Part shown: piece by piece, positions 344 through 17,126 of the stretch
Position numbering within the stretch: the first letter of the stretch is position 1
Layout of the letters: the number at the start of each line of letters is the position of its first letter
From: an uncultured virus (IMG/VR IMGVR_UViG_2850943043_000004)
Taxonomy: Duplodnaviria; Heunggongvirae; Uroviricota; Caudoviricetes
Direction: 5' to 3' (one strand)
Virus record (IMG/VR): IMGVR_UViG_2850943043_000004
Location: 108,698 to 128,697 of that record
DNA length: 20,000 bases
Notes under the pieces: model-generated
Told to the model about the DNA's origin: nothing
The model's input: the letters and a program-made list of their open reading frames with translations, nothing else
The model's database searches: none
Translations under genes and position numbers: made by a program

Positions 344-361
344 ATAAAATTCAATTTTTAA
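344..361. repeat. Gene-junction palindrome copy 1: ATAAAA-ttcaat-TTTTAA
   Basis: Directly follows TAA at 341-343. Confidence 0.7.
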
Positions 362-385
362 AGAGACTTAAAAGGAGGTGAATAA

Positions 386-808
386 GTGGGACGACATAAA
401 GCAACATTTGAAGGGAAGGTAATTAAAAAAAGTTGGACATTAGGCCTGTGTGATGCCCTTGTCCCAATTGAGCAGCAATGTGAATACCAGCCATTTTTTG
501 AAGGGAACATCGACTTAGACCCAATTGAAGTCGGAGGGAAAGTGTATATCCCAGGGTTTAACGAATACGTAGTCGTAACAGACAGGCAACGCAACACAAA
601 AAATGAATGGGCATATCAGACTGACAAGATCATTAAAACAATTGAGGATAAAGAGAGCCTTGAAAAAGCAATTCAAAAACAAGAAAAAATAGAGAAATGG
701 AATCAGCAAGTTAAAGAAGACTATGAACGCTTTAAAGAGCAAGAAAAGAAACGTAAAACTTCCTGGTGGAAGAGGTTTTGGAAATTCTGTGTAGCAGGTG
801 AGATATAA
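386..808 (+). CDS. Hypothetical phage protein, 140 aa, with coiled-coil C-terminus
   Basis: RBS AGGAGGTG, GTG start, ORF track. Confidence 0.8.
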   Translation: MGRHKATFEGKVIKKSWTLGLCDALVPIEQQCEYQPFFEGNIDLDPIEVGGKVYIPGFNEYVVVTDRQRNTKNEWAYQTDKIIKTIEDKESLEKAIQKQEKIEKWNQQVKEDYERFKEQEKKRKTSWWKRFWKFCVAGEI

Positions 809-826
809 ATGAAAGTTTTATTTTAT
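809..826. repeat. Gene-junction palindrome copy 2: ATGAAA-gtttta-TTTTAT
   Basis: Directly follows TAA at 806-808. Confidence 0.65.
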
Positions 827-848
827 CAGAATAAAAGGAGGAGATAAC

Positions 849-1795
849 TTGATCTTAGGTAGTAAAGAGAATCCTAGACACATTTTAGGGTTATCTGGTG
901 GGAAAGATTCAGCTGCTTTAGCTATACATATTAAAATAACTAGACCAGATATTTTTAATAAGATTGAATTTTATTTCACGGATACTGGAACAGAACTCGA
1001 TGAGCTGTACATTTATTTAGATAAACTTGAAAATATTTGGAGAAACCAATTTATAGAATAAAAGCAAATATTGACGAGAACAAAAGAATACAGTTTAAAG
1101 CTGAAAATGGAAACGATGAATCAATCCCTTTTGATGATATTCTTTTTAATAAATACAATGGATTTTTACCAGCACCGAATGCAAGATGGTGTACTAGGGA
1201 TCTCAAAATAATTCCAATGGAAAAATGGATAAATGGGGATCATTGTATTTCCTATATTGGAATAAGAGCAGATGAACCTAGTCGTGAAGGTTATACAAGT
1301 AGAAGCAAAAAGTCAATATATCACCAGTATATCCGTTTAGGGAAGATGGTTTATTAATTAATGATATTTATAAAATACTTGAGGAAACGGTAGGTATCCC
1401 TCCCTACTATAGATGGAGAACAAGATCAGGTTGTTACTTCTGTTTTTACCAGCGAAGGGTTGAGTATGCTGTAATGTATTATCTATATCCAAATTTATTT
1501 AAGGAAAGTAAGAAATATGAAACTAAACATAGTGATGGAAGAATATTCACTTGGGTCAAGGATAAGCCCTTGGATTACATTAAAGATAATGCAAAAGAAA
1601 TTATCATTAGATACATAAAAAACAATATAAAAAGCATCAAGTGCGTATAAAGAGAGCTTTATATTAAGCCTGGATGAAATGATTAAACTGATTGAAAATG
1701 AAAAAATTGATGAATTCATAAATACTTGGGATTTAAAAAGGCTACACGATGTAGACGGTGAAAATAAAGATGGTTGCAACGTGTGTGTGATATAG
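849..1795 (+). CDS. PAPS-reductase-family (PP-loop) protein, ~315 aa, frameshifted in this sequence
   Basis: SGGKDS PP-loop, FTDTG, RWCT..LK..P, GIRADE, RSGCYFCFYQ and C-terminal GCNVCVI*. The frames join by restoring A's at ~1030, ~1307 and ~1617-1633. Confidence 0.85.
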
Positions 1796-1805
1796 GAGGC
1801 AGAAA

Positions 1806-2170
1806 ATGAAGTATATTTATCAGGAGGTATGAAGAGCGGGTGGCAGGAACAGACTCCTGAAATTGAAGGAGTAGATTATTTTGATCCAAGAATTCATTCC
1901 CCGCAAAATAATACATCCATGGAATTTGTATATAAAGATATCGAAGCTGTAAAATCTTCAGACGTAGTATTCTGCTATATGGAAAAAGACAACCCGACTG
2001 GATACGGGGCAGCGTGGGAATGTGCCATAGCAGCAGAGAATAACATACCAATAATTACAGTTTGGGAAAAGCCCTATACAGACCCATTTTTTGCATGTAA
2101 CTCTCTTTACTTGTACAACAACTTTGAAAAAGGTTTAGAAAGGCTAGAAAAATTCTTAGAAAAAAGGTGA
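1806..2170 (+). CDS. Nucleoside 2-deoxyribosyltransferase / N-glycosidase family protein (~121 aa)
   Basis: Restoring one A at 1809 gives MKVYLSGGMKSGWQ..., then FDP, DIEAVKSSDVVF, GAAWECAIA, IPII. These are the NDT/Rcl-like motifs. RBS GGAGG at ~1795. Confidence 0.75.
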
Positions 2171-2175
2171 AATAG

Positions 2176-2322
2176 TTGGATTGGAAATTAATTGACAAAG
2201 ATGGTAACTTTCTAAAATGGGTTAATTGTCAATATGATGCAAGTGATATCGCAACAATGATGTATGAGGCCCAGATAGTTACCTTAGATTTTAATAAACA
2301 AGAAGCAAAAATTCTTAAATAG
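2176..2322 (+). CDS. Hypothetical protein, 48 aa
   Basis: RBS AGGTGA, TTG start, MDWKLIDKDGNFLKWVNCQYDASDIATMMYEAQIVTLDFNKQEAKILK*. Confidence 0.6.
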   Translation: MDWKLIDKDGNFLKWVNCQYDASDIATMMYEAQIVTLDFNKQEAKILK

Positions 2323-2327
2323 TTTAA

Positions 2328-2345
2328 ATAAAAGGATGATTTTAA
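2328..2345. repeat. Gene-junction palindrome copy 3: ATAAAA-ggatga-TTTTAA
   Basis: 5 nt after stop TAG and overlapping the next RBS. Confidence 0.7.
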
Positions 2346-2437
2346 GGAGTTGATTAGACATTAGTATAAGTCAAAGGCAGTCTCAACGTATTCGAGAAGC
2401 TCTGATAAATTCAAACACAACTGCTGAGGAAATTGGA

Positions 2438-2656
2438 ATGGATAAGGCATTATCAGAAGTTCTCAATCTACTCAAGAGAAGAATTTTGGAGCTGGAAACT
2501 TTGTATTATCCAGAGTGGGAATATGAAAATGCAAAAGTGAAGCTTGAAGAGCTTAGAGAAATGGTGAATAGAATTAATGCACTTCGAGGAACCGGGAAGG
2601 ATGAACAAAGTGAATTTGAAAATGCAGGAAGCGGTTTTACATCTAAACAAATATGA
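2438..2656 (+). CDS. Hypothetical phage protein; true start probably ~2355
   Basis: The frame is open upstream (DISISQRQSQRIREALINSNTTAEEIG-MDKAL) back to a TTA at 2355 placed correctly after RBS AAGGAG, so the start codon may be mutated or miscalled. Confidence 0.6.
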   Translation: MDKALSEVLNLLKRRILELETLYYPEWEYENAKVKLEELREMVNRINALRGTGKDEQSEFENAGSGFTSKQI

Positions 2657-2912
2657 CAGCAGTTCAAAAAGTGCTCAAGATGCACAGAAGTTGTTGAATG
2701 CTTTGAAGGATACATACGATGTAGTCGGTTGTCGGTTTAGACATTATAAAGGCGGTCTTTATAAGGTTATTGGAGAGGTCATTCACACTGAAACAGAAGA
2801 AAAGCTGGTTACATATGAAGACCAAGACGGATTACTTTGGGCAAGACCTAAAGACATGTTCTTTGGAAAAGTGGTTGTTGATGGTAAAGAGACTAAGAGA
2901 TTCACAAAATAG
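2601..2912 (+). CDS. DUF1653-like domain protein, 103 aa
   Basis: FRHYKGGLYKVIG..HTETEEKLVTY..LWARPKDMF..RF is the typical DUF1653 signature. ATG 2601 follows GGAAGG. Confidence 0.75.
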   Translation: MNKVNLKMQEAVLHLNKYDSSSKSAQDAQKLLNALKDTYDVVGCRFRHYKGGLYKVIGEVIHTETEEKLVTYEDQDGLLWARPKDMFFGKVVVDGKETKRFTK

Positions 2913-2930
2913 ATTAAAAGGACGATGAAT

Positions 2931-3074
2931 ATGAATAAAAAATACGGACTTTATTGCATGGGAACACTTGTTAACACTTATGATGACGCTATTGAGGCTC
3001 ATAATGATGCTGTATATGCTCAAGAAGAAAGTGGAGTGCCGCATGAAGTAAGAGAAATCAGAAAAGGAGAGTAG
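2931..3074 (+). CDS. Small hypothetical phage protein, 47 aa
   Basis: MNKKYGLYCMGTLVNTYDDAIEAHNDAVYAQEESGVPHEVREIRKGE*, RBS AAGGA, fills the gap between flanking genes. Confidence 0.7.
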   Translation: MNKKYGLYCMGTLVNTYDDAIEAHNDAVYAQEESGVPHEVREIRKGE

Positions 3075-3079
3075 GTAGG

Positions 3080-3442
3080 ATGGAATACACTAAGTATGGA
3101 AATCTTGTAGAAGGCTATATAACATTCAATCTTTATTTTGAGACATTTGAATACAAAGAAGATAGCTTATTAGAACAAGTGAAATTCACCACAGTTAAAG
3201 AGTTATTCAACATGATGCAGCCAGACTATGTTGAAGAACTAAAGCAAGAAAACGGTGCAGATCAGGTTGAGGTTCATGATATCACGTTTAGCGCTAAAGA
3301 AGATGACACTGAGGCTTTCATCACAATGTATGACAACTCAGGAAACTATCGAATCTCAACAAATCTTGATGTAAGTGGCTTGGATAGCGAGTACAAGCAA
3401 ACATTAAAAAGCATTAAAGGTATTATAGACAAGAAACTTTGA
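3080..3442 (+). CDS. Hypothetical acidic protein, 120 aa
   Basis: ORF track, RBS AGGAG, operon-like packing. Confidence 0.75.
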   Translation: MEYTKYGNLVEGYITFNLYFETFEYKEDSLLEQVKFTTVKELFNMMQPDYVEELKQENGADQVEVHDITFSAKEDDTEAFITMYDNSGNYRISTNLDVSGLDSEYKQTLKSIKGIIDKKL

Positions 3443-3465
3443 GAGTAAAGTAAAGGATGATGAAA

Positions 3466-3764
3466 ATGAATATTAGAGAGTTTATTGCTGAGCAGAGAAA
3501 GACGAAAAGTTCTTGGGTTTGAGATCAAAATTAAGAGAACTAATTGAACACAGAAGACTTGAACTTGTTGAGATGCTTGGATATAAAATCGATAGTTTGA
3601 ATCAAGAGCAACTTATAGAATTCAAAGAAAAATTCAGTGAATTAACTGCATTTAAAGAAAAGGTAGGTAATGATCCTTTCAGCATTAGTCTGGATGAACT
3701 TGGCGAACTTCTATGTTTCCAAAAAAATAAGGAAGGTAGATACAAAACTCTGGAGTATGTTTGA
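3466..3764 (+). CDS. Hypothetical protein, ~99 aa, one frameshift
   Basis: ATG 3466 after AAGGA. Adding one A at ~3497 joins MNIREFIAEQRKDEKF to the track ORF 3513-3764. Confidence 0.65.
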
Positions 3765-3819
3765 GTAAAACGATTGATCCATACATTGATAAACCAAAAC
3801 AGGCTACAGCTATTTCTAG

Positions 3820-3837
3820 ATAAATTCACAGTTTTAT
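3820..3837. repeat. Gene-junction palindrome copy 4: ATAAAT-tcacag-TTTTAT
   Basis: Intergenic, ~20 nt before the RBS of the yosL-like gene, followed by TCAAA as in copies 7 and 9. Confidence 0.65.
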
Positions 3838-3869
3838 TCAAAATAAAAACAAAAATAAGGAGATGTAAA

Positions 3870-4223
3870 ATGGGAGCAGCTACACGAATTGATCCAACTC
3901 AACCATATGTAAAAAAGAAGAACATTATTAACTTTACAGTAGCCACTGAGAACACTCATATTCATTTAGCTGATGGGCAATCTTTTCCTGTATTAAAAGG
4001 AGAGATTATTGCAACTGACCAACAGGGAAATCAATTTGTTGAATTAGAAAAGAATCTAGATGATTACGTTCCAGTTAAGAAGAGTTCCTTATATGAAAGT
4101 ATGGCACAGGGCTACATGGAAATGGGCGACATTAATCGTGAAATATCAGAAGCATTTAATCATGCTGAAAATGAAGCTGAAACAGCGACTACAAAATTAA
4201 TTACTGGGGCATATAACGATTAG
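3870..4223 (+). CDS. yosL: YosL-like protein with MazE/EndoAI-antitoxin-like C-terminus, 117 aa
   Basis: RBS TAAGGAG, ATG 3870. C-terminus MAQGYMEMGDINREISEAFNHAENEAETAT resembles the MazF-binding tail of Bacillus MazE (recalled as MRRGYMEMAKINLNISSEAHFAECEAETT). Lies just upstream of nrdI. Confidence 0.8.
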   Translation: MGAATRIDPTQPYVKKKNIINFTVATENTHIHLADGQSFPVLKGEIIATDQQGNQFVELEKNLDDYVPVKKSSLYESMAQGYMEMGDINREISEAFNHAENEAETATTKLITGAYND

Positions 4224-4616
4224 TGATCATTACATATGAGAGTAAAACTGGCAATGTAAGAAGGTTTGTAAAAGCGCTGCAACAAGAGTTTGACGTTGAG
4301 GCAATTGAAATAACTGATGATACGATCATCAATCAAGAATTCATACATATTACATATACGATAGGCTTTGGGGAAGTACCTGAAAGGACTTTGAGTTTTA
4401 TCAATAAGAATAAAAATAAAATTAGAGGAGTTGCTGTTAGTGGTAACAAGGTTTGGGGTGATAACTATGGTTTAGCTGGAGACAAGCTTTCAGCTAAGTT
4501 CCACACCATTGTTATTAAAGTTTGAACTTAGTGGAACGAAACAAGATCTACAGAAAATCATTCAGGAGGTACAACTTATTGACAAACACAATACCAAATT
4601 GGATCAAGCTCAATAA
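4223..4616 (+). CDS. nrdI: Class Ib RNR flavodoxin NrdI (frameshifted near 4503)
   Basis: YESKTGNVRRFV, TYTIGFGEVP, SGNKVWGDNYGLAG. Restoring a CA in the CACA run at ~4502-4507 gives HTPLLLKFELSGT...QAQ*. Confidence 0.92.
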
Positions 4617-5719
4617 TGAAATCATGATCCAGAAAGATGGGAAGTATCAATTTGAAAAGGATAAGGAGGCCGTACATAGTTACTTTGTTGATTACATAAA
4701 TCAAAACACAGTCTTTTCCATGATCTGAAAGAGAAGCTGGACTATCTGATTAAAATGATTATTACGAGGAAGAATTCTTAAGCAAATATACATTCGAACA
4801 GATTAAATCAATCTATAAGATTGCTTACAGTTACAAATTCAGATTCCCTTCTTTTATGAGTGCCTTTAAGTTCTACAATGACTACGCATTGAAGACAAAC
4901 GATAAAACAAAGATCCTGGAAAGGTATGAGGATCGTGTCTCAATTGTGGCTTTATATTGCGCTGATGGCGATTACGAGAAGGCTGTTGAGGAAGTACATA
5001 CTATGATGAAACAAGAGTATCAGCCAGCAACACCTACTTTCCTTAATGCTGGACGTAAGCGAAGAGGTGAAATGGTGAGCTGCTTCTTACTTGAAGTAGG
5101 CGACAGTTTGAATGATATTTCACGTGCTATTGATATTTCCATGCAGCTTTCTAAGCTAGGTGGAGGAGTAGCATTAAATCTAAACAAACTAAGAGCCAAA
5201 GGTGAAGCGATTAAAGACGTAGAGAATGCGACTAAAGGTGTCGTAGGTGTTATGAAACTATTGGATACTGCTTTTAGATATGCAGATCAGATGGGACAAA
5301 GGCAAGGGTCAGGAGCGGCTTATCTAAGTGTATTCCATCCAGACATTACAGACTTCCTGGATACAAAAAAAATCTCAGCAGATGAAGATGTCCGAGTTAA
5401 AACACTATCCATTGGTGTAGTTGTTCCTGATAAGTTTATTGAACTTGCAAGGGAAGACAAGGATTATTACATGTTCTATCCGCATTCAGTATACAAGGAA
5501 TATGGACAATATCTTGATGAGTTAGACATTAATGAAATGTATGATGAGCTTGTTGAAAATCCAAGAGTTAGAAAATCAAAGGGAAATGCTCGAAAGCTGT
5601 TAGAGCAATTGGCCATTCTAAGAAGCGAATCTGGTTATCCATATATCATGTTTGCTGACAATGTAAATAAAGTGCATCCAAATGAACATATTTCAAAAGT
5701 GAAGTTTTCTAATTTGTGT
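4579..5719 (+). CDS. nrdE: Class Ib ribonucleotide reductase alpha subunit, exon 1 (frameshifts at ~4715 and ~4753)
   Basis: TTG after GGAGG. MTNTIPNWIKLNN..., PATPTFLNAG, SCFLL, GGGV, ESGYPY, ending at active-site SNLC. Confidence 0.95.
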
Positions 5720-5999: not shown

Positions 6000-6956
6000 T
6001 CAGAGGTACTCCAAGCATCACAAGTGTCAGTTTATACAGATTATGATCAGGAAGATGAAATTGGATTAGATATCTCATGTAATCTTGGCTCCATGAACAT
6101 TGTAAATGTAATGAGTAATCAATCAATTGCTTCAACAGTCAGAATAGCAATTGACTCACTGACAACCGTCACAAGAAAAACAAACATTGTAAATGCTCCA
6201 GCAGTTGCGAGAGCAAATACACTAATGAGATCAATTGGTCTAGGTCAGATGAACCTCCATGGATTTCTAGCTCAAAATAATATTGCTTATGAAAGTGAAG
6301 AAGCTAAGGATTTTGCAAATACATACTTTATGATGGTTAACTTCTACTCCCTGCAGCGTTCTATGGAAATTGCACGAGAAACAGGGGAGACATACTACAA
6401 GTTTGATGGTTCAACTTATAAATCAGGTGAGTATTTCGAAAAGTACGTAGCAAATGATTATAGCCCTCAGTTTGAAAAGGTTAAAAAGCTATTTGGAGAT
6501 CAACATATTCCTAACATTGAAGATTGGACGAAACTTAAAGAAGATGTAATGAAATATGGCATATACCATTCGTATAGGCAGGCTATTGCACCTACGGGAA
6601 GCATCTCATATGTTCAATCATCTACAGCAGGTGTAATGCCAATAATGGAGAGAATTGAGGAACGTACATACGGAAACAGTAAGACATATTATCCGATGCC
6701 AGGTTTATCGGCTCAGAACTGGTTCTTTTATAAAGAAGCCTACGATATGGACATGTTCAAGGTAGTTGATCTTATTGCTACGATTCAGCAGCATGTTGAC
6801 CAGGGAATTTCATTTACCTTGTTCTTGAAAGATACGATGACAACGAGAGACCTAAACAGAATAGACCTCTACGCTCATCATAAAGGAATTAAGACCTTGT
6901 ATTATGCTCGCACAAAGGATACAGGCCAAGAAGGTTGCTTGTCATGTGTAGTTTAG
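6000..6956 (+). CDS. nrdE: Class Ib ribonucleotide reductase alpha subunit, exon 2
   Basis: SEVLQ..., SCNLGS, AIAPTGSIS, KTLYYART, C-terminal CLSCVV. Spliced product ~699 aa. Confidence 0.95.
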   Translation, partial: SEVLQASQVSVYTDYDQEDEIGLDISCNLGSMNIVNVMSNQSIASTVRIAIDSLTTVTRKTNIVNAPAVARANTLMRSIGLGQMNLHGFLAQNNIAYESEEAKDFANTYFMMVNFYSLQRSMEIARETGETYYKFDGSTYKSGEYFEKYVANDYSPQFEKVKKLFGDQHIPNIEDWTKLKEDVMKYGIYHSYRQAIAPTGSISYVQSSTAGVMPIMERIEERTYGNSKTYYPMPGLSAQNWFFYKEAYDMDMFKVVDLIATIQQHVDQGISFTLFLKDTMTTRDLNRIDLYAHHKGIKTLYYARTKDTGQEGCLSCVV

Positions 6957-7055
6957 GAGAAAACGGAAGGAGCATCACAATCTTCAATTAAGAGTTAACA
7001 ATTGGTGTGTGAAGGATATAAACGAGCTAAACATTAGGAAGTATAAGTGGAATAT

Positions 7056-7085
7056 AAGCAAGCCAGCAATTTTACCGACTTGCTT
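7056..7085. terminator. Possible imperfect hairpin/terminator downstream of the antisense gene
   Basis: AAGCAAG (7056-7062) ... CTTGCTT (7079-7085) inverted repeat. Confidence 0.35.
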
Positions 7086-7633: not shown

Positions 7634-8635
7634 TTGTCACAACTAAACAATAACAAGCTGTATACCGCAGCAAACTGGTCAAAGCATGAAGACGATTTTA
7701 CCCAAATGTTCTATAACCAAAACGTGAAACAGTTCTGGCTTCCGGAAGAGATTGCTTTAAACGGCGATCTCCTCACATGGAAGTACCTCGGAAAAAATGA
7801 GCAGGACACTTATATGAAAGTCTTAGCTGGGTTGACGTTGTTAGATACAGAACAAGGCAACACTGGCATGCCTATCATTGCTGAACATATAGATGGGCAT
7901 CAAAGAAAGGCAGTTCTAAATTTCATGGCTATGATGGAAAATGCTGTTCATGCAAAGTCTTACAGCAACATTTTTCTTACATTAGCTCCAACCGAGCAGA
8001 TAAATGAAGTCTTTGAATGGGTGAAAAACAATAGGTTTCTTCAAAAGAAGGCTAGAACAATTGTTTCAGTCTATAAATCAATCAAGAAAAACGATGAAAT
8101 TTCTTTATTCAAAGCAATGGTTGCATCTGTTTTTCTGGAGAGTTTCCTTTTCTACTCAGGGTTTTATTATCCACTTTACTTTTACGGACAAGGAAAACTT
8201 ATGCAGAGCGGGGAAATTGTAAATTTAATTATCCGTGACGAGGCGATACACGGCGTTTACATCGGTTTATTAGCACAGGAGATATATAAGAAACAAACTC
8301 CTCTGAAGCAAAAAGAACTGTATGCATGGGCTTTAAGTTTACTGCAGGAGCTTTATGAAAATGAACTGGAGTATACAGAAGATGTTTATGATCAGGTTGG
8401 ATTAGCTCCAGATGTAAAGAAATTCATCAGATATAACGCAAATAAAGCTTTAAACAATCTGGGCTTTGATCATTGGTTTGAAGAAGAGGATGTTAATCCA
8501 ATTGTTATCAATGGTTTGAGCACTAAGACTAAATCCCATGACTTCTTTTCAACTAAAGGAAACGGGTACAAAAAAGCCACGGTTGAACCATTAAAGGATT
8601 CAGATTTTATTTTTAACGAGAGAGGATGTATTTGA
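7634..8635 (+). CDS. nrdF: Class Ib ribonucleotide reductase beta subunit (uninterrupted)
   Basis: [47 protein letters not shown]. Confidence 0.97.
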
Positions 8636-8877
8636 TGAGAGTAATTAAATTAGAGCAGCCTAATTGTAATCCATGTAAAATGGTGTCCAATTACTTAGAG
8701 CAAGCAAATATTCAATTTGAGACAGTTGACGTTACACAGGAACCAGAAGTGGCAGCTAGATTTGGTGTTATGGGAGTTCCGGTAACCGTTTTGCTGAGTG
8801 ATCAAGGAGAGGAAGTAAACCGAAGTATTGGTTTTAAGCCTGATGAACTTGATGAGTTACTAAAGGAATTACGATAA
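8635..8877 (+). CDS. yosR: Thioredoxin/NrdH-like redoxin, 80 aa
   Basis: CNPC motif, GVMGVP, GFKPD. Coupled to the nrdF stop. Confidence 0.88.
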   Translation: MRVIKLEQPNCNPCKMVSNYLEQANIQFETVDVTQEPEVAARFGVMGVPVTVLLSDQGEEVNRSIGFKPDELDELLKELR

Positions 8878-8891
8878 AAGGGTAATTTTAA
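8874..8891. repeat. Gene-junction palindrome copy 5: ATAAAA-gggtaa-TTTTAA
   Basis: Left arm contains the thioredoxin stop codon TAA (8875-8877). Confidence 0.7.
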
Positions 8892-10115: not shown

Positions 10116-10133
10116 AATAAAGATTACTTTTAT
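10116..10133. repeat. Gene-junction palindrome copy 6: AATAAA-gattac-TTTTAT
   Basis: Intergenic, ~11 nt before RBS AAGGAGG. Left arm slightly degenerate. Confidence 0.55.
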
Positions 10134-10668: not shown

Positions 10669-10738
10669 AAGCAAATATGAATGGTGTTGAATTTGAGGGT
10701 GAGTAATAGCTAATCAAACACAAATATAAAATTAGGAG

Positions 10739-11155: not shown

Positions 11156-11211
11156 AATATTTAATTAATGCTTTGTTTTTTCATATATAATTCAAAAAAG
11201 GACTGAGAAAT

Positions 11212-12051
11212 ATGACTCAATTCGATAAACAATACAATTCAATTATAAAGGATATTATCAATAATGGAATCTCAGACGAAGAGTTTGATGTAAGAACCAA
11301 GTGGGACTCAGATGGAACACCGGCACATACTCTAAGTGTAATGAGTAAGCAAATGAGATTCGACAACTCAGAGGTTCCGATTTTAACGACAAAAAAGGTT
11401 GCCTGGAAAACAGCCATTAAAGAGTTGCTCTGGATTTGGCAGCTGAAATCTAATGATGTTAATGATTTAAACAAGATGGGCGTACATATTTGGGATCAGT
11501 GGAAACAAGAAGACGGCACCATCGGACATGCATATGGATTTCAGCTGGGGAAGAAAAACAGAAGTCTAAATGGAGAAAAAGTGGATCAGGTAGACTATCT
11601 TCTTCATCAATTGAAGAACAACCCGTCTTCACGCAGACACATTACAATGCTGTGGAATCCTGATGATTTAGATGCAATGGCCTTAACACCATGTGTATAC
11701 GAGACACAATGGTACATTAAACAAGGTAAGCTCCACCTCGAGGTAAGAGCACGGAGCAATGATATGGCATTGGGAAATCCATTCAATGTATTCCAGTACA
11801 ATGTGTTGCAGCGCATGATTGCTCAAGTCACAGGTTATGAGCTTGGTGAATTTATCTTTAATATTGGGGATTGTCATGTGTACACACGTCATATAGACAA
11901 TTTGGAAGTCCAAGTGGAAAGAGAACAATTTGAAGCACCTGAACTATGGATCAATCCTGCAGTGAAAGATTTTTATCATTTTACAATCGATGATTTCAAG
12001 TTAATCAACTATAAGCATGGAGACAAGCTTTCATTTGAGGTAGCGGTTTAA
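11212..12051 (+). CDS. thyA: Thymidylate synthase (Bacillus ThyA / phi3T ThyP3 type)
   Basis: PILTTKKV, SRRH, LTPC, RSNDMALGNPFN, DCHVYTRH; 279 aa. Confidence 0.97.
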   Translation: MTQFDKQYNSIIKDIINNGISDEEFDVRTKWDSDGTPAHTLSVMSKQMRFDNSEVPILTTKKVAWKTAIKELLWIWQLKSNDVNDLNKMGVHIWDQWKQEDGTIGHAYGFQLGKKNRSLNGEKVDQVDYLLHQLKNNPSSRRHITMLWNPDDLDAMALTPCVYETQWYIKQGKLHLEVRARSNDMALGNPFNVFQYNVLQRMIAQVTGYELGEFIFNIGDCHVYTRHIDNLEVQVEREQFEAPELWINPAVKDFYHFTIDDFKLINYKHGDKLSFEVAV

Positions 12052-12572
12052 TGCTATCTCTTATTGCTTGCTGTGATAAAACTCTGGCCATTGGATATAA
12101 AAACAAATTACTGTATCATTTGCCTGCTGACATGAAACACTTCAAAGAAAAAACTGAGGGGAAAATATGTATTCAAGGAAGATCAACATACGAATCAATA
12201 ATCGGTATAACAGGTAAGCCTCTACAGAATAGAAGGAATATTATACTTACTAGGGATCAGAACTTTAAGCCAGATTATTCGTCGTTTGTTTATCATTCAA
12301 TTGAGGAGGTCTTAAAGCTCATTCAAGGACAAGTTAACACTGATGAGGAAGTAATGGTGATAGGAGGAAGTATGATTTACAAAGCATTCTTGCCCTACGC
12401 TGATAAAGTGTATTTGACAATTGTTGATTCAGAGTCAAATGAAGTAGATTCATATTTCCCAATGTTAGATGATCATTGGAAAGTGACTAATAAACAACAT
12501 AATAAAGCCGATGAAAAGAACAAATACAATTATTCCTTTATAACTTTTGAAAATAATTATAGACAAAGGTAA
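12051..12572 (+). CDS. dfrA: Dihydrofolate reductase
   Basis: IG..NKL.YHLPADMKHFK, GRSTYES, PLQNRRNIILT, VIGG, DSYFP. Coupled to thyA (TAATG). Confidence 0.95.
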   Translation: MLSLIACCDKTLAIGYKNKLLYHLPADMKHFKEKTEGKICIQGRSTYESIIGITGKPLQNRRNIILTRDQNFKPDYSSFVYHSIEEVLKLIQGQVNTDEEVMVIGGSMIYKAFLPYADKVYLTIVDSESNEVDSYFPMLDDHWKVTNKQHNKADEKNKYNYSFITFENNYRQR

Positions 12573-12654
12573 AAAATATGTATAATATGATAATAAGGAG
12601 GTTATGTGACAACAGTTTTTTATTTAAAAACAAAAACAAAAAATATGCATTTTG

Positions 12655-12672
12655 ATAAAGCTAATATTTTAT
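12655..12672. repeat. Gene-junction palindrome copy 7: ATAAAG-ctaata-TTTTAT
   Basis: Flanked by TTTG / TCAAA, 9 nt before RBS AAGGAGG. Confidence 0.65.
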
Positions 12673-12695
12673 TCAAACTTTAAGGAGGTGATTAA

Positions 12696-13048
12696 TTGGA
12701 AGTAGGAGACAAAATACATAACACCAACGAACAGATAACAGCCTTAGAGAAAAAGAAATACCAAATTGAAACAACTTTACTTGAAAAACAAAGGGATCTG
12801 TTAAAACTCGAAACTCAGCAAAATAAAGAGAAGCTTGAATTGTTATTCGAGCTAAGTGAAGTCTTAACCCAATTGGAAGGTGAAGAATGGGTAAGCTGCA
12901 CGATTGCTTTACGAATTATTAGAAGAAATAAAAGAAAGTACTTAGACCTTTTGAGCTGGTTAACGAAAAAGCATACATAAATAAGGATAAATTTAAAGTT
13001 CTTCATGATGAATTCTTTCAATTGAAGCTACAATTAAATGAGATATGA
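12696..13048 (+). CDS. Coiled-coil hypothetical protein, ~117 aa (YosX-like), one frameshift
   Basis: Adding one T at ~12950 continues the frame as [33 protein letters not shown]. Confidence 0.72.
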
Positions 13049-13091
13049 GGAGTTGTCAGTTGACGGTAGCGAAATTGGAGGTGACAAATAT

Positions 13092-13157
13092 ATGTGTACA
13101 TGTGAAGAGGGTAGTGGCAAATGTCCTTATTGTGACGGAGCACTATCTGTATTTTAA
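13092..13157 (+). CDS. Putative 21-aa Cys-rich micro-protein
   Basis: RBS GGAGGTGA, MCTCEEGSGKCPYCDGALSVF*. Confidence 0.4.
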   Translation: MCTCEEGSGKCPYCDGALSVF

Positions 13158-13175
13158 AGAGAAGGATAGTGAGCT

Positions 13176-13481
13176 ATGGAGAAAATCAATGGCAGGTATA
13201 GGATTAAAACACCTTGTCCAAAGGGAATTTCAGGATGTGCTGTTTGTCATTATTTATGGATAGACGAAGATGCGTACGACCAGATTTTCGATTGTTATTA
13301 TGATTATTATGGCAAAAAACCAGACCCAGCATCTATTGTTCAAATACATAAACACCTGCCGAAAGATATTCATTTGTTAGCAGAAGAGTGGGGATGGCAT
13401 GACACAGAGGTCAGAGAAAAAATTTATAAATGGTTGAGAGAAGAGATGATCTGGGTGTTCGGGTTTGGGAAAGGAGTATAA
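13176..13481 (+). CDS. Hypothetical protein, 101 aa
   Basis: RBS AAGGA. N-terminal CPKGISGCAVCH possible metal-binding motif. Confidence 0.7.
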   Translation: MEKINGRYRIKTPCPKGISGCAVCHYLWIDEDAYDQIFDCYYDYYGKKPDPASIVQIHKHLPKDIHLLAEEWGWHDTEVREKIYKWLREEMIWVFGFGKGV

Positions 13482-13503
13482 AAATAGAGGGGATTAACCC
13501 TCA
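13479..13503 (-). terminator. Intrinsic terminator of sspC, between convergent genes
   Basis: On the minus strand GAGGG-ttaatc-CCCTC followed by TATTTTT. Confidence 0.55.
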
Positions 13504-13507
13504 TACA

Positions 13508-13720
13508 TTAATGAAATTGGCCATTCATACTTTGTTGAGCTAAACGTACTAAACGTTTTGTGATCTCTCCACCTACTGATCCGTTTGCTCTACTTGTTGT
13601 CTCAGGCCCTAAGTTCACACCGAACTCAGAAGCAATTTCATACTTCATTTGTTCAAGGGCACCAGCAGCTTGAGGCACAAGTAATTCATTGCTGTTGTTT
13701 GATCTGTTTTGTTGAGCCAT
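13508..13720 (-). CDS. sspC: Alpha/beta-type small acid-soluble spore protein, 70 aa
   Basis: [50 protein letters not shown] before ATG 13720. Confidence 0.96.
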
Positions 13721-13878
13721 ATGATCATCTCCTAAAGTTGTATGTAAACAAGCTTGTTCAATTGTATTGTGTGGAGATGTTTTGTAAATATACACATTAA
13801 TTTAAAGTGAGGGGATTTAAATGTCAATTGGTCATGGAGCATGAATTAACACGTACTTAAACAAAGAAGGGGGATAAA

Positions 13879-14709
13879 ATGAAAATCGATTATGTTTCAG
13901 ATCTGCATATTAATCACTGGATACCTTGGGACAATGACCAAATTAAATGGGAAAGGCGAACAAGGGAGATTATTAGAAGGCTGATATCGAATGGAAATGG
14001 AGAGGTATTAATCATTGCCGGTGATTTTACTGAGTGGAATCAACAGACACTGTGGGTACTTGATGAAGTAGCAAAGCAGTATGAAAAGGTTTACTTCACA
14101 TATGGTAATCATGATCTTTATTTACTCAGTAAAAATCAGCAACGAAAATATTCCGATTCATTGGGAAGGGTGAATGATTTAATTCAGAAGGCTACAGACA
14201 TCAATAATGTCACTCCATTAATAAAGTCTACGGATACATACAAAGGGAAAGTCTTTGCAGGAGATGTTATGTGGTATCTTCCAAAAGGAAATGAAGGATG
14301 GGATTTCTTCAAAGGTGTCTCTAATGATTCAAACTATATCAGCCTTAATGGATACAGCAAAGAAGATGGGGTACGAGCAATGTGGAAAGAATCAATGGGC
14401 TGGTATGACACTCTTGAAAACTCTCACATTGATGTATTTGTCTCACATGTTCCACCTGTTCACAATCCTTATTCTCCGTTTGAGCCTAACAGCTGCTATA
14501 TGGTTGATGTCCCGTTCATTAACGCAAAACATTGGGTTTGTGGTCATGATCATTTACAAGCTGAGTTTGACAAAGATGGAACGAGCTTTCACATGAACTG
14601 CATTGGATATCCATATGACTATGATATGTATCCTAGAGTAAATGAGATACCAGGTAAGCAAGTTGATACGTATAAAACGTTTGAGCTGAAGACATTTGAA
14701 ATCAAATGA
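13879..14709 (+). CDS. yotB: Calcineurin-like metallophosphoesterase
   Basis: SDLH, AGD, GNHD, SHVPP, GHDH motifs. Position after sspC. Confidence 0.88.
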
Positions 14710-14723
14710 AATTCTAATTTTAT
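14706..14723. repeat. Gene-junction palindrome copy 8: ATGAAA-ttctaa-TTTTAT
   Basis: Left arm contains stop TGA (14707-14709). Confidence 0.68.
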
Positions 14724-14742
14724 ACAGAAGGGAAGGGGAGAC

Positions 14743-14934
14743 ATGGAAAATGAAGTTGTGTTTTTTTGTAGAAAATGCAATCATCACTTGTTTGCTAAAA
14801 ATCCTATGATAAACACATTAAAGGTTATATCTGAAATGGATTGCCCTAATTGTGGAGAAGAGGGTTATCATAATTGGATTCTTTCGCATATAGGTGATTC
14901 AGAGAAAGAAAAGGAGAACTACAATTGGAAGTAG
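14743..14934 (+). CDS. Small Zn-ribbon protein, 63 aa (YotC-like)
   Basis: CRKC...CPNC, RBS GGGGAG. Confidence 0.8.
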   Translation: MENEVVFFCRKCNHHLFAKNPMINTLKVISEMDCPNCGEEGYHNWILSHIGDSEKEKENYNWK

Positions 14935-14952
14935 ATAAAATGTTGATTTGAT
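14935..14952. repeat. Gene-junction palindrome copy 9: ATAAAA-tgttga-TTTGAT
   Basis: Directly follows TAG at 14932-14934, followed by TCAAA. Confidence 0.65.
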
Positions 14953-14972
14953 TCAAAAAAGGAGGGGATGAC

Positions 14973-15329
14973 ATGTTCCTTAAATGGGTTGAAAAAAGAG
15001 AGAAGGATAAGATGATGGATGACCTAAGTGCATTCATCGACAATCTAATCAATGAAAGGGATTCCCTTGTAGACAAGGTAAGAAAGCTCAGCAAAGATGA
15101 GGAAATCGCAAAATTGTTAAAAGAAAATGATAATCTTAGAAATAATAGCCTTCATACTTTATCAGAAAAAGAAAGAAATGAAGCAGATGCTTTTAGGGAT
15201 GAACATTTGGGGAAATGCAAAGGTAGCATAGCTTATCTTTTGACAGGAGTGAGTATGGGTACAGCTGTAGAGGTTATTTGCTCCAAATGTAAAACCAAAA
15301 AAGACATTACAGACATTAGTACGTGGTAA
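14973..15329 (+). CDS. Hypothetical protein, 118 aa (coiled coil plus H/C..CxxC)
   Basis: RBS AGGAGG, ORF track. Confidence 0.78.
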   Translation: MFLKWVEKREKDKMMDDLSAFIDNLINERDSLVDKVRKLSKDEEIAKLLKENDNLRNNSLHTLSEKERNEADAFRDEHLGKCKGSIAYLLTGVSMGTAVEVICSKCKTKKDITDISTW

Positions 15330-15364
15330 ACAAAGTAGCGAAGTGATTTAAAGGAGATGAACTC

Positions 15365-15706
15365 TTGACTGTATATGAAAAAATTATGAGCCACCCTGAA
15401 AGCAAAAAGGCAGTGTTAATCAAGTTTGGTTTTGGGCAATTGTCCCCGATTAAAGTGGAAAAATGGTTTAAGTCATACAATCCACCCAAATACTACGAAT
15501 TTAGAAAAGCAGCTAACCACAGAAAGGTTACTGACCTACATACTCAAGCAATGACAAAGGATCAAAGGACGCATTTATTAAACTTGGAAGAGGTCTTTAA
15601 TGATGAAAAGTCTAGAAATGCGTTATTAAAATTAGCAGAACAAAACACTAAGAGAAATAAGGATGGACTGACTATTATCGAAAAACATGATCCTTGGAGG
15701 GGCTAA
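15365..15706 (+). CDS. Hypothetical basic protein, 113 aa
   Basis: RBS AAGGAG, TTG start. Confidence 0.75.
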   Translation: MTVYEKIMSHPESKKAVLIKFGFGQLSPIKVEKWFKSYNPPKYYEFRKAANHRKVTDLHTQAMTKDQRTHLLNLEEVFNDEKSRNALLKLAEQNTKRNKDGLTIIEKHDPWRG

Positions 15707-16141
15707 ATGCAGGCGAACATTACTAAGGAACTGTCGTGGTGGGGAGTTACTTTGACTGGAAGTATGAAAACCGTAAAATCTTTAAGCGAGCTGATGGAAA
15801 TAAACAAAGAACTGTTCGAGAATCTCTACAAAGTCCAAACAGACACAATTGAAGAGCTTGTAAACAAATTATATGAACAGGTTCCTGAGTATGAGAAGAA
15901 ATTCTTGAAGTATATTAATGAACAGCTACCTAATCTGAGGAGGTGCTTACAAGTCGAACTGCCCTATAATACTCAACTAATATCGAGCATTGAATACGAA
16001 ATATACATATCAGGTGCCGAAATTGATTGTGAATACCCTTTTGATGCGAGAGGTTGTATTATTACTTTCTTTCAACGGTTACCAGAAATAATCGATTTGC
16101 ACAGGGAGGGATTGAATGAAAAACGCAATGTCCTGGTTTGA
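15707..16141 (+). CDS. Hypothetical protein, 144 aa (paralogue A)
   Basis: RBS GGAGG. Shares the RGCIIT motif with the next gene. Confidence 0.78.
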   Translation: MQANITKELSWWGVTLTGSMKTVKSLSELMEINKELFENLYKVQTDTIEELVNKLYEQVPEYEKKFLKYINEQLPNLRRCLQVELPYNTQLISSIEYEIYISGAEIDCEYPFDARGCIITFFQRLPEIIDLHREGLNEKRNVLV

Positions 16142-16541
16142 TTTAGATTTTGAGTTTAAACCAGACAATAACATTGATGAAGCTCTATTGCGATTATTTG
16201 ATCTCATGAAGAAGAGTCTCCACATTTATTTCAATATTGAAAATTCTTCTGATATTCATGAGTTTTTAAAAATCGCTGCAACAAAGAGCAATGTTGATTA
16301 TTCCTTCATTGAATGGATTAGGGGAAAGGGCATCCCAAGATTAAAGAAAATTGATTTCGAAAATTTACCAAGCAATGATCAATTTCTTGCAATGATTGAG
16401 ATCGATGAATACTGTCTTAAATGTGAGATGGATTTTAAAGAGCCAGAAGAGGTAAGGGGTTGCATCATCACGATCATTAATAGTATTCAGGAATATACTA
16501 ATATTTGCAAACAGTTAATTAAGGGAGGGCGAGTGATCTGA
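16116..16541 (+). CDS. Hypothetical protein, 141 aa (paralogue B)
   Basis: RBS GGAGG, overlaps the previous gene. Confidence 0.78.
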
Positions 16542-16708
16542 TTGTTACGGCATGGGTTTTATTAGTTGTATTTGGGCTTGTGTTTTTAGCAAATGTGGAT
16601 TCCGAAGAGGATATTAAATTTGCAGTGTATATTGGTGTAATAAAATTTGTTTCAGTTTTCATTGTTGCAATTGCAGCAGGTGTAATATGGGGAGGGTTGT
16701 TTCAATGA
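16538..16708 (+). CDS. Small two-TM membrane protein, ~56 aa (YotH-like), non-canonical start
   Basis: After [28 protein letters not shown]...[20 protein letters not shown]. Confidence 0.6.
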
Positions 16709-16947
16709 GTGATATTGAAAATAAGTATGTGAAACTAAAGCATGTTAAAGAACTATTGGGGTTAATAAAGACCAGAGACAGTTATTATGATTGGTCGGAT
16801 AACTATGAAAAATATGATAACAAAGTAAAAAATACAGTAGAGTGGTTGGAACGGAATGCTAAAACATTGGATAAGCCGATCAAATTTAATCAAAAAGAAG
16901 AATTTTATGAAGTGACAAATTATGAACCAGTGGAATTAAGTAAATGA
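16705..16947 (+). CDS. Hypothetical phage protein, 80 aa
   Basis: ATG 16705 after GGAGG with ATGA overlap, [14 protein letters not shown]... Confidence 0.75.
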
Positions 16948-17108
16948 ATAAGCCGGTAATAACGTTAACATATGGTTTGGGTATTGTTGAAGCGTTTATT
17001 ATGGGTTTTACCTTAGCACAGAAGTATTTTGTTCCGGCCATCATAAGTGGGATATTGACTTTAATCATTGGTTATTTCCATGTATGTAAAGGCTCAAAAA
17101 CTAAATAA
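16944..17108 (+). CDS. Small membrane protein, 54 aa
   Basis: ATGA overlap, [54 protein letters not shown]. Confidence 0.6.
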   Translation: MNKPVITLTYGLGIVEAFIMGFTLAQKYFVPAIISGILTLIIGYFHVCKGSKTK

Positions 17109-17126
17109 AATCGGTCTTTTATTTAG
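17101..17126. repeat. Gene-junction palindrome copy 10: CTAAATAAAA-tcggtc-TTTTATTTAG
   Basis: Perfect 10-bp arms. Left arm contains stop TAA (17106-17108). Confidence 0.75.

What the first reader, a model, noticed from the sequence alone, without database searches (positions are those of the whole stretch)
344..17126. Dispersed palindrome ATRAAA-N6-TTTTAW at gene junctions: candidate recombination sites of a phage gene-cassette (module-shuffling) system
Seen: at least 10 copies with constant 6-bp spacing and ten different spacers, at 344 (ttcaat), 809 (gtttta), 2328 (ggatga), 3820 (tcacag), 8874 (gggtaa), 10116 (gattac), 12655 (ctaata), 14706 (ttctaa), 14935 (tgttga) and 17105 (tcggtc). Six abut or contain the upstream stop codon, and nine lie within ~20 nt of the next RBS. 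Symmetry often extends outward (perfect 10-6-10 at 17101-17126; right flanks TCAAA, CTAAA, TTAGA, ACAGA). More degenerate versions follow stops at 3765, 11152, 12569 and 15330. The sites bracket single genes (386-808; 14743-14934) or coherent modules (PAPS reductase/NDT; yosL-nrdIEF-trx; thyA-dfrA). Known: an ~11-6-11 inverted layout is the geometry of tyrosine-recombinase core sites (dif/pdif modules), and SPbeta-family phages encode tyrosine-recombinase-fold proteins outside this window. Inference: these are cassette boundaries through which accessory genes are gained, lost or shuffled. Variable spacers would need a heterology-tolerant enzyme, as with Tn916-type integrases. Alternatives are operators of a dimeric phage regulator or weak RNA hairpins/processing sites.
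Basis: partly seen in the sequence, partly recalled or inferred. Interest (0 to 1): 0.85.

Follow-up and report, generated by a model that had tools for sequence, protein, structure and literature searches.

The report
Phage gene-junction palindrome marking module boundaries
A short two-armed DNA motif that sits between genes of SPbeta-like and related large Bacillus-type phages is real, looks like a docking site for a paired phage protein, and marks the exact points where these phages swap blocks of genes.

Summary
ATAAAA-N6-TTTTAT(/A) occurs 6 times strictly in the window (expected 0.14). It occurs 36 times (14 perfect, 22 with one mismatch) in the 128.7-kb phage genome, and only at a 6-bp gap.

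It is not SPbeta-specific. All 20 large siphovirus genomes counted, other than Lactococcus 949, carry 9-28 perfect copies against 0-1 in the controls. These include PJN02, Tsamsa, Geobacillus E3, Perkons and a Staphylococcus phage. Two host chromosomes, SPO1 and SPP1 are not enriched.

It is not the known SPBRE/MrpR operator. It is not an RNA stem either: in Perkons the two arms vary independently, and 8 of 9 window sites fold no better than shuffles.

Mosaic breakpoints between phages pile up exactly at the motif's edges. That holds for 28 of 36 sites, at 37.7 breakpoint clusters per kb against 5.4 in other intergenic DNA.

Best reading: a dimeric phage protein site that serves as the linker for module exchange. 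The binding protein and the enzymology are unproven. The conserved Xer-like YomM and YopP proteins are the leading candidates. The searches run here found no description of the motif.

The parts
344..361 (.). Motif copy ATAAAA-ttcaat-TTTTAA. It abuts the stop of ORF 164-343 and lies 24 nt before the start of ORF 386-808.
   Evidence: In 4 relatives homology stops at its right edge.
809..826 (.). Motif copy ATGAAA-gtttta-TTTTAT. It abuts the stop of ORF 386-808 and lies 22 nt before the start at 849.
   Evidence: In 4 relatives homology stops at its right edge. A relative's contig joint runs 825->2736.
2328..2345 (.). Motif copy ATAAAA-ggatga-TTTTAA, 5 nt after ORF 2176-2322. There is no clear RBS behind it.
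   Evidence: No breakpoint at its edges among the 14 relatives.
3820..3837 (.). One-mismatch copy ATAAAT-tcacag-TTTTAT, 32 nt before the yosL-like gene (3870-4223), at the head of the nrdI/E/F block.
   Evidence: In 7 relatives homology starts at its left edge. Alignments to SPBc2, Hyb2 and Hyb3 begin at window 3815.
8874..8891 (.). Motif copy ATAAAA-gggtaa-TTTTAA. The stop codon of the thioredoxin-like gene (8626-8877) is motif positions 2-4.
   Evidence: In 1 relative homology starts here.
10116..10133 (.). Decayed copy AATAAA-gattac-TTTTAT (two mismatches). It corresponds to the 'gaatac' slot of relatives.
   Evidence: (SPBc2 128076). A relative's contig joint runs 9783->10119.
12655..12672 (.). 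One-mismatch copy ATAAAG-ctaata-TTTTAT, 23 nt before the yosX-like gene (12696). It follows directly on an SPBRE-like element.
   Evidence: Homology starts here in 3 relatives and stops here in 1.
14706..14723 (.). Motif copy ATGAAA-ttctaa-TTTTAT. The stop of the metallophosphoesterase gene (13879-14709) is motif positions 2-4. This is the left border of the yotC-like cassette.
   Evidence: The cassette shared with PJN02 begins here.
14935..14952 (.). One-mismatch copy ATAAAA-tgttga-TTTGAT. It abuts the stop of the yotC-like gene (14743-14934). This is the right border of the cassette.
   Evidence: PJN02 homology ends at motif position 15. A relative's contig joint runs 14953->16101.
17105..17122 (.). 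Perfect copy ATAAAA-tcggtc-TTTTAT. Its symmetry extends to 17101-17126. The stop of ORF 16944-17108 is motif positions 2-4.
   Evidence: In 2 relatives homology starts here. A relative's contig joint runs 16357->17105.

Best explanation
The motif is a protein-binding dyad. It has two independently read half-sites (ATAAAA, with a weaker outer TYT two bases further out) held at a fixed 6-bp gap, about 28 bp in all. A clade of large siphoviruses of Bacillota carries 30-40 copies per genome, in the short gaps between a stop codon and the next ribosome-binding site.

Because it is the only sequence shared by otherwise unrelated neighbouring genes, it is the joint at which related phages exchange gene modules. 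Crossovers fall in its arms, on either side of the spacer.

My committed mechanism is as follows. The sites are dif/lox-like core sites for the clade's conserved Xer-like tyrosine recombinases (YomM-like and/or YopP-like). Recombination between sites at the same slot in two co-resident phage genomes swaps modules. The slot-specific spacers keep sites within one genome from recombining with each other.

Shown: the motif, its spacing, its clade distribution, the independence of its arms, and the breakpoint coincidence.
Inferred: that a phage protein binds it, which protein that is, and that exchange is catalysed rather than ordinary short-homology recombination.

The confidence given (0.4) is for the whole statement including the recombinase mechanism. 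For the shown part alone (a protein-type dyad that marks module joints) I would say about 0.85.
For: Reality and geometry:
- Searches give the counts and the spacing control.
- The logo (225 oriented contexts, not independent of each other) gives T-Y-T-n-n-ATAAAA-(t)nnnn(a)-TTTTAW-n-n-A-R-A.
- A de novo scan puts ATAAAA at gap 6 as the top inverted repeat in 6 of 8 genomes. The two exceptions are Lc949 and the 60 kb of SPO1 that was fetched.

Clade specificity:
- Perfect copies number 12-28 in 16 phage records and 9-20 in Perkons, E3, Staphylococcus SPbeta-like and Tsamsa. Controls give 0-1.
- Host chromosomes hold 7 per 4.2 Mb and 4 per 4.5 Mb, against controls of 3 and 6. SPO1 and SPP1 hold 0.

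DNA site rather than RNA stem:
- In Perkons the ATRAAA/TTTYAT combinations are A/T 9, A/C 12, G/T 9 and G/C 8.
- Eight of 9 window sites fold at -0.1 to -1.7 kcal/mol, with z-scores of +0.35 to -1.5.

Breakpoints:
- 34 of 320 breakpoint clusters lie within 12 nt of a site centre, against 2.2 expected.
- Homology starts peak at motif position +1 and stops at positions 17-18.
- 28 of 36 sites have an edge breakpoint, and 10 act as a border in both directions.
- 28 of 31 site-bearing junctions hold a breakpoint, against 40 of 110 site-free junctions with a gap of 30-400 nt (Fisher p = 8e-8).
- Density is 37.7 clusters per kb in the motif, 5.35 in other intergenic DNA and 1.47 in coding DNA.
- The same spacer is found with reassorted left and right flank types.
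- Junctions resolved to the arm-spacer border are seen.
- A cassette was transferred between genera, with both ends in motifs.

Candidate enzymes:
- YomM-like and YopP-like proteins are Phage_integrase plus SAM-like N-terminal domain.
- Both are present in all 5 distant motif-bearing phages tested.
- Arg-I, Lys, His, His and Tyr are conserved. Arg-II is R or K.
- A 2026 paper on Perkons (passages read) treats the extra tyrosine 'integrases' of this clade as unexplained. Integration there is done by the serine integrase.
Against: No binding or cleavage data exist for any protein at this motif.

Lactococcus phage 949 has both YomM and YopP homologues, but only 2 perfect copies and no other abundant 6-mer inverted repeat. 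The proteins therefore do not need a dispersed motif.

Arg-II is Lys in the SPbeta-subgroup YomM and in most YopP homologues, so catalysis is not assured. Their paralogue MrpR is a catalytically dead repressor (abstract and passages of PMC10516654).

The phyletic pattern fits MrpR better: 5 of 5 motif-bearing phages have it and 949 does not. However, ChAP-seq found MrpR only at 10 SPBRE promoters.

Phage-encoded annealing proteins could use an 18-28-bp conserved site without any site-specific enzyme. The phage has a Sak4-like AAA_24 protein and a Holliday-junction resolvase (yotM, annotated in SPBc2).

Laboratory phi3Ts x SPbeta hybrids crossed over inside 1.4-18-kb identical blocks, which is ordinary homologous recombination.

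Breakpoints at the outer motif edges cannot be told apart from crossovers inside the motif.
Confidence: 0.4

Rival explanations
1. The motif is the operator or roadblock site of a dimeric phage regulator. This could be a catalytically inactive use of YopP, as for its paralogue MrpR, or the DndB-like YopQ, or a small undetected protein. The regulator would silence or time the long operons. In this reading module exchange is a by-product. The motif is the only conserved 18-28 bp between unrelated genes, so the phage's annealing-type recombination and selection for intact gene borders put the breakpoints there.
For: - Independent half-sites at fixed spacing fit any dimeric DNA binder.
- The sites lie in gene gaps of both early and late clusters, in both gene orientations.
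- Seven or 8 of 13 SPBRE-like operators lie within 18-273 nt of a site.
- MrpR sets a precedent for a recombinase fold used as a repressor.
- yopP, yopQ and mrpR are reported as expressed in the lysogen (passages of bioRxiv 10.1101/2021.11.22.469490).
- T4-type PeSLs show that regulatory motifs can mediate modular shuffling (abstract of PMC2839356).
- Laboratory hybrids arise by plain homologous recombination.
Against: - There is no promoter association. Sigma-70-like matches in the window number 64, against 74.6 in shuffles.
- The late genes form one YonO operon with a single start site (passages of PMC5467207), so the sites inside it are not promoters.
- YopQ is not detectable in PJN02 or Tsamsa, although both carry the motif.
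- The sharpness of the breakpoints is hard to get from selection alone: peaks fall on single positions, with a 7-fold excess over other intergenic DNA.
Confidence: 0.36
2. The motif is the target of a phage nuclease or nickase. Its breaks start recombination-dependent replication or repair, and so seed exchange tracts at the sites.
For: The sites are phage-specific, nearly absent from host chromosomes, and coincide with breakpoints. The interrupted palindromic layout fits dimeric nucleases in general, which is my own knowledge and not a tool result.
Against: - No nuclease family is shared by all motif-bearing phages in the tblastn comparison.
- Break-induced tracts should end at variable distances, yet both starts and stops of homology sit at the motif edges.
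- A phage cutting its own genome about 35 times would need protection.
Confidence: 0.08
3. The motif acts in the mRNA as a small AU hairpin that insulates, stabilises or processes cistrons.
For: The motif sits between a stop codon and the next RBS. One copy (17100-17127) folds at -6.3 kcal/mol with z = -4.4. The SPBc2 record annotates two copies as stem_loop features (2622-2651 and 116406-116431).
Against: - There is no covariation. In Perkons mismatched A/C (12) and G/T (9) arm combinations are as common as matched ones (9 and 8).
- Eight of 9 window sites fold no better than shuffles.
- Arm sequence, not pairing, is conserved across genera.
- The outermost 'pair' is often A/A (TTTTAA variant).
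Confidence: 0.03
4. The motif is a chance by-product of AT-rich intergenic composition, stop codons and RBS-proximal A/T runs.
For: The half-site words are common: 390 ATRAAA and 314 TTTTAW on the + strand. Stop codons overlap the left arm.
Against: The spacing control uses the same words in the same genome: 28 at N6 against 0-3 at 20 other gaps. It repeats in 6 further genomes. The reversed-pattern controls give 0-1.
Confidence: 0.01

Closest known systems
PeSL regulatory cassettes of T4-type phages (Arbiol et al. 2010, PMC2839356, abstract read; PMC4122927, search listing only)
   Same: Both are short conserved intergenic motifs, dispersed among accessory genes, at which insertion, deletion and replacement events between related phages are located. 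Both define modular shuffling of single genes or small modules.
   Different: PeSLs are a sigma-70 promoter plus a terminator stem-loop and recombine by homology. This motif is an 18-28-bp AT-only dyad with a free 6-bp spacer. It has no promoter and no stable stem. It also occurs inside the single late operon, is conserved letter for letter across phages of at least five host genera, and has slot-specific spacers. Mini-circles were shown for PeSLs; nothing of that kind was tested here.
Tyrosine-recombinase core sites: dif (XerC/XerD, 11-6-11), loxP/FRT (13-8-13) and pdif modules (layouts recalled, not from a call)
   Same: Both have inverted arms of about 11 bp around a 6-bp non-conserved centre. 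Two Xer-like paralogues are encoded by the same genomes. Junctions can be placed at the arm-spacer border.
   Different: There are about 35 sites per genome, each with its own spacer, instead of one site or a few identical ones. No cleavage or binding has been shown. Arg-II is often Lys. Lactococcus 949 phages have the enzymes without the motif.
SPBRE, the MrpR (YopR) operator of SPbeta (Lazarevic 1999, not seen; Kohm et al. 2023, PMC10516654, abstract and passages)
   Same: Both are dispersed intergenic repeats of the same phages. SPBRE is read by a tyrosine-recombinase-fold protein. Several SPBRE lie within 18-273 nt of a palindromic site. The left part of SPBRE (ACAAAA) is one mismatch from the half-site.
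   Different: The sequence differs: about ACAAAWAATATGTATAT, not palindromic, overlapping a -10 box. There are 13-14 copies against 36-38. The 10 ChAP-seq peaks are at SPBRE promoters, not at the other palindromic sites.
Module 'linker' or boundary sequences of lambdoid phages (Botstein's modular theory; Clark et al. 2001; recalled, not read here)
   Same: Both are short conserved sequences at module borders that serve as recombination joints.
   Different: Those are heterogeneous short homologies. This is a single defined dyad motif with fixed geometry, shared by a whole clade, which implies a dedicated reader.

Membership tests
Tyrosine-recombinase core-type site (dif/lox-like) | Inverted arms of about 9-13 bp flanking a 6-8-bp non-conserved central region | tested here: met
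   The 6-bp gap is exclusive. The logo shows ATAAAA inner arms plus outer TYT/ARA at -4..-2 and 21..23, giving 11-6-11.
Tyrosine-recombinase core-type site (dif/lox-like) | A cognate tyrosine recombinase with an intact catalytic set is encoded alongside | tested here: inconclusive
   YomM-like and YopP-like proteins carry the Phage_integrase domain. R, K, H, H and Y are conserved. Arg-II is R in the PJN02, Tsamsa and 949 YomM and in the E3 and Perkons YopP, and K in the others.
Tyrosine-recombinase core-type site (dif/lox-like) | Motif and recombinase co-occur across genomes | tested here: inconclusive
   Both proteins are present in 5 of 5 distant motif-bearing phages. They are also present in Lactococcus 949, which lacks the motif. 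Only one motif-free relative was examined.
Tyrosine-recombinase core-type site (dif/lox-like) | Strand exchange at the arm-spacer borders, with protein binding to the arms | not testable with these tools
   Natural junctions are compatible. The spacer travels with the left module in L1:110919 and with the right module in L1/Goe11 and SPBc2/L4. Microhomology would give the same pattern.
SPBRE / MrpR operator | Match to the 15-bp SPBRE and location at the 10 MrpR ChAP-seq promoters | tested here: not met
   The SPBRE derived from the 10 promoters is a different, non-palindromic sequence. It has 13 copies in this genome, none overlapping a palindromic site.
PeSL-type promoter-terminator cassette | Conserved intergenic motif at insertion, deletion and replacement breakpoints between related phages | tested here: met
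PeSL-type promoter-terminator cassette | Contains a strong sigma-70 promoter and a terminator stem-loop | tested here: not met
   Promoter-like matches number 64 against 74.6 in shuffles, and terminator-like matches 9 against 9.3. Stems are -0.1 to -1.7 kcal/mol at 8 of 9 sites.
Structured RNA element (hairpin or processing site) | Pairing kept by compensatory change, and stability above background | tested here: not met
   The Perkons 2x2 table shows independence. Folds are no better than shuffles at 8 of 9 sites.

The most novel reading that the evidence does not exclude
The motif would be a natural 'heterospecific-site cassette exchange' system. In this reading each of the roughly 35 dif-like sites carries a slot-specific 6-bp overlap that acts as an address. 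The phage's Xer-like pair (YomM/YopP) then recombines only matching slots of two co-resident phage genomes. Modules are shuffled at high frequency while gene order is kept and deletions within a genome are avoided. This is the same logic as engineered lox-variant cassette exchange, but evolved in a phage clade that spans Bacillus, Geobacillus, Psychrobacillus and Staphylococcus hosts.
Probability: 0.17. Interest if true: 0.92.

Novelty: new variant of a known kind. Interest (0 to 1): 0.72.

Why it matters
SPbeta-like phages are a main model for phage communication, for prophage-host development and for mapping defence-system determinants with hybrid phages. A defined motif that predicts where their genomes break and rejoin gives a map of exchangeable modules. 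It also gives natural cloning joints for engineering.

It further offers a concrete, testable target for the two conserved tyrosine 'integrases' of this clade. Their function is an open question: integration is done by a serine recombinase, and the 2026 Perkons paper lists only hypotheses.

If exchange is enzyme-driven and addressed by the spacer, it would be a new way for viruses to have ordered genetic exchange. If the motif is a regulator's operator, it defines a second genome-wide control layer beside MrpR/SPBRE.

Tried and rejected
- SPBRE identity. I derived the element from the 10 MrpR-bound promoters of SPBc2. It is a different sequence.
- YonO promoter. The late genes are one operon with one start site, and PJN02 showed no YonO match.
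- Host factor. Two host chromosomes, SPO1 and SPP1 show no enrichment.
- Laboratory hybrids (Hyb1-3 and the PP526179 hybrid) as a live test of site use. Their real junctions lie in 1.4-18-kb stretches identical in both parents, so the crossover cannot be placed. The k-mer painting also gave many spurious short switches.
- Site-to-site deletions. Two ungapped searches missed a known case. An edit-distance search found only 3 candidates.
- RNA evidence. The one raw-read RNA run laid 0 reads. The three RNA-library contig sets come from relatives and show only further mosaic joints at the sites, not transcript ends.
- Promoter and terminator scan: at chance.
- Earlier notes of this scan: nothing relevant.
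- Literature. Searches for SPBRE, for SPbeta with mosaic/intergenic/palindrom, for Tsamsa with intergenic/repeat, for yopP/yopQ, and for the two hexamers with 'phage' found no description of this motif. Lazarevic et al. 1999 is not in the library and was not seen, so it may mention these palindromes. The SPBc2 record annotates two of them only as stem_loop.
- A search for an alternative dyad in Lactococcus 949 found nothing abundant.
- I did not run complex prediction or structure prediction, because a pass would not have decided between the readings.

Full report
**Source and setting.** The window is the last 20 kb (108,698-128,697) of a 128,697-bp virus record. It is an SPbeta-like Bacillus phage. 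The best matches are 90-95% identical but cover only 34-69% of the window, in 7-13 pieces, so the region is strongly mosaic. Pfam names nrdI, a split nrdE, nrdF, a thioredoxin-like gene, a dUTPase, thyA, dfrA, a SASP gene, a metallophosphoesterase and a serine recombinase at the window's end.

Site 10116 has two mismatches.
- The four 'more degenerate' sites are not copies. Site 12569 is an SPBRE.

A composition-matched control is to keep the two words and vary the gap. Over the whole genome the pattern occurs 28 times at a gap of 6 and 0-3 times at each other gap from 0 to 20. The perfect palindrome occurs 14 times against 0-1 elsewhere, and one-mismatch forms 22 times against 1-8. Two-mismatch forms show no excess. 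This gives about 36 sites, with 36 different spacers.

**Anatomy.**
- Sites lie in gene gaps in both gene orientations. The site's end is typically 17-32 nt before the next start codon, directly 5' of the RBS.
- A stop codon often abuts the left arm (positions -2..0) or is the TAA/TGA at motif positions 2-4.
- The logo from 225 oriented contexts (related phages, so not independent) extends the symmetry to T-Y-T at -4..-2 and A-R-A at 21..23. It also shows a weak T at spacer position 1 and a weak A at spacer position 6. The result is an 11-6-11 layout.
- The frequent TTTTAA variant on the downstream arm parallels the A-over-T skew of the coding strand. I read it as a weakly constrained outer position.

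**Distribution.**
- SPBc2 shows the same spacing signal: 13 perfect and 25 one-mismatch copies.
- All 16 records counted first hold 12-28 perfect copies, with reversed-pattern controls of 0-1. They include PJN02, a 166-kb phage of another genus, with 28.
- So do four much more distant large siphoviruses: Perkons 9, Geobacillus E3 17, Staphylococcus SPbeta-like 10 and Tsamsa 20. Lactococcus 949 has only 2. Spacing tests repeat this.
- A de novo scan ranks ATAAAA at gap 6 as the top 6-mer inverted repeat in every genome tested except 949 and SPO1.
- Two host chromosomes hold 7 and 4 copies in 4.2 and 4.5 Mb, against controls of 3 and 6. SPO1 and SPP1 hold none.
- The motif is therefore about 100-fold denser in this phage clade than in the host. 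It is not a host-factor site with host targets.

**What it is not.**
- It is not the SPBRE. The element common to the ten MrpR ChAP-seq promoters is about ACAAAWAATATGTATAT. It has 13 copies here and 14 in SPBc2, one at each of the ten published promoters, and none overlaps a palindromic site.
- It is not a YonO promoter. The late genes are one operon with one start site.
- It is not an RNA stem. In Perkons position 3 (A/G) and position 16 (T/C) assort independently: 9, 12, 9 and 8. Eight of 9 window sites fold at -0.1 to -1.7 kcal/mol, no better than shuffles. Only the extended 17100-17127 copy is stable.
- Independent half-sites at a fixed gap are the signature of a dimeric DNA-binding protein.

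**Module boundaries.** I aligned the genome to 14 SPbeta-like phages.
- Of 320 clusters of alignment ends, 34 lie within 12 nt of a site centre, against 2.2 expected.
- Homology starts pile up at motif positions -4 to +2 (32 at +1). Homology stops pile up at positions 17-18.
- 28 of 36 sites have such an edge breakpoint: 23 as a left border, 15 as a right border, and 10 as both.
- With gap length matched (30-400 nt), 28 of 31 site-bearing junctions hold a breakpoint, against 40 of 110 without a site (p = 8e-8).
- Per kb, breakpoints are 37.7 in the motif, 5.35 in other intergenic DNA and 1.47 in coding DNA.
- These counts use my own crude gene calls and related phages, so events are not independent.
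- Contigs of relatives in three RNA libraries show further joints at 825, 10119, 14704, 14953 and 17105.

**Spacers.**
- Orthologous slots keep their spacer: 254 of 273 pairs are identical. Mismatch is 2.3% in the spacer against roughly 1-8% per 10-nt bin in the flanks.
- The same spacer is found with several left and right flank types, including all four combinations.
- Homologous inter-site segments keep both flanking spacers in 206 of 215 pairs. In the other 9 pairs (3 distinct cases) the right spacer differs. In two of these three cases homology ends at the left-arm/spacer border; in the third, SPBc2 against phi3T, the left flank also differs.
- In L1 a 431-bp one-gene segment between sites 87795 and 88226 is missing. 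The left spacer is kept and the right arm comes from the second site.
- Such simple site-to-site events are rare: 3 candidates.
- Two slots carry reverse-complement spacers in some phages.

**Cassette shared across genera.** PJN02 shares with this phage, at DNA level, only a thyA fragment and window 14692-14949 (98% identity). The latter is the yotC-like gene with both flanking motifs and both spacers. The outer arms differ between the two phages.

**Who reads it?** The proteins shared with all five distant motif-bearing phages include only three DNA-binding candidates, all with the tyrosine-recombinase fold: YomM-like, YopP-like and MrpR.
- YomM and YopP families keep Arg-I, Lys, His, His and Tyr. 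Arg-II is R or K.
- Both families are spread over the same clade, including virulent Lactococcus 949 phages.
- The 949 phage has both proteins but not the motif, and lacks MrpR.
- MrpR itself binds SPBRE only.
- YopQ is DndB-like and was not detected in PJN02 or Tsamsa.
- The link between motif and reader is therefore an inference, not a result.

**Mechanism.** Two readings fit almost equally.
- (a) dif-like core sites for the Xer-like proteins, with exchange between same-slot sites. The slot-specific spacer would then explain why 36 sites coexist in one genome without rearranging it.
- (b) An operator or roadblock motif whose conservation makes it the only homology available for the phage's annealing-type recombination. 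PeSLs are the precedent.
- Laboratory hybrids show that ordinary homologous recombination inside long identical blocks is enough to make hybrids, and they cannot resolve use of the sites.
- I place (a) slightly ahead because of the geometry, the single-position sharpness of the breakpoints, and the two conserved recombinases without a known role.

**Novelty.** None of the searches listed under Tried and rejected found this motif described. Lazarevic et al. 1999 was not available. The kind of element, a conserved linker at module borders, is known. This defined dyad, conserved across a clade and with addressed spacers, is a new variant of that kind.

Noticed in passing
window 12571-12585 and 12638-12652 (+): Two SPBRE-like MrpR operators sit upstream of the yosX-like gene. 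The second ends 3 nt before palindromic site 12655. Written as 6-6-6, SPBRE reads ACAAAA-AATATG-TATATA, and its left part is one mismatch from the ATAAAA half-site. Paralogous recombinase-fold proteins may therefore read related half-sites.
   Followed up: partly
window 18301-19026 and 18942-20000; also G000 74315-74668 / 74626-75303 and 28018-31800 / 31842-34949: Several genes that are single in SPBc2 are split into two overlapping or adjacent ORFs here: the large serine recombinase, mrpR (N-terminal CB domain and C-terminal domain on separate ORFs) and the tape measure. There is also no ORF of 400 aa or more where yonO should be. The cause is either indel errors in the record or a decaying or clear-plaque variant.
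   Followed up: no
G001:C1:2002249-2003444 (Bacillus spizizenii chromosome), beside L166: Two of the 7 perfect motif copies in this host chromosome flank its thyA gene, and one has the phage slot spacer 'gaatac'. The chromosomal thyA region looks phage-derived.
   Followed up: no
G000 91900 and 7433 (outside the window) and their slots in phi3T, BUCT083, L3 and L8: The spacer is the reverse complement in some phages: tgataa against ttatca, and ttccca against tgggta (one further change). This is what inversion of the centre between the inverted arms would give.
   Followed up: partly
window 4856-5719 and 6024-6956: nrdE is in two ORFs about 300 nt apart. In relatives' contigs 1155 other letters lie between 5719 and 6000. 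This fits the variable intron/intein content known for SPbeta nrdE (annotation).
   Followed up: no
window 849-2322: This stretch holds five short ORFs in different frames with no Pfam match. G000 also carries a second set of nrdE/nrdF-like genes at 1180-4288.
   Followed up: no
Perkons (L243-L249): Perkons uses a relaxed half-site ATRAAA (38 one-mismatch copies at gap 6 against 1-11 at other gaps), whereas PJN02 and Tsamsa are strict. If the reader protein is found, this difference in specificity could be mapped to residues.
   Followed up: no
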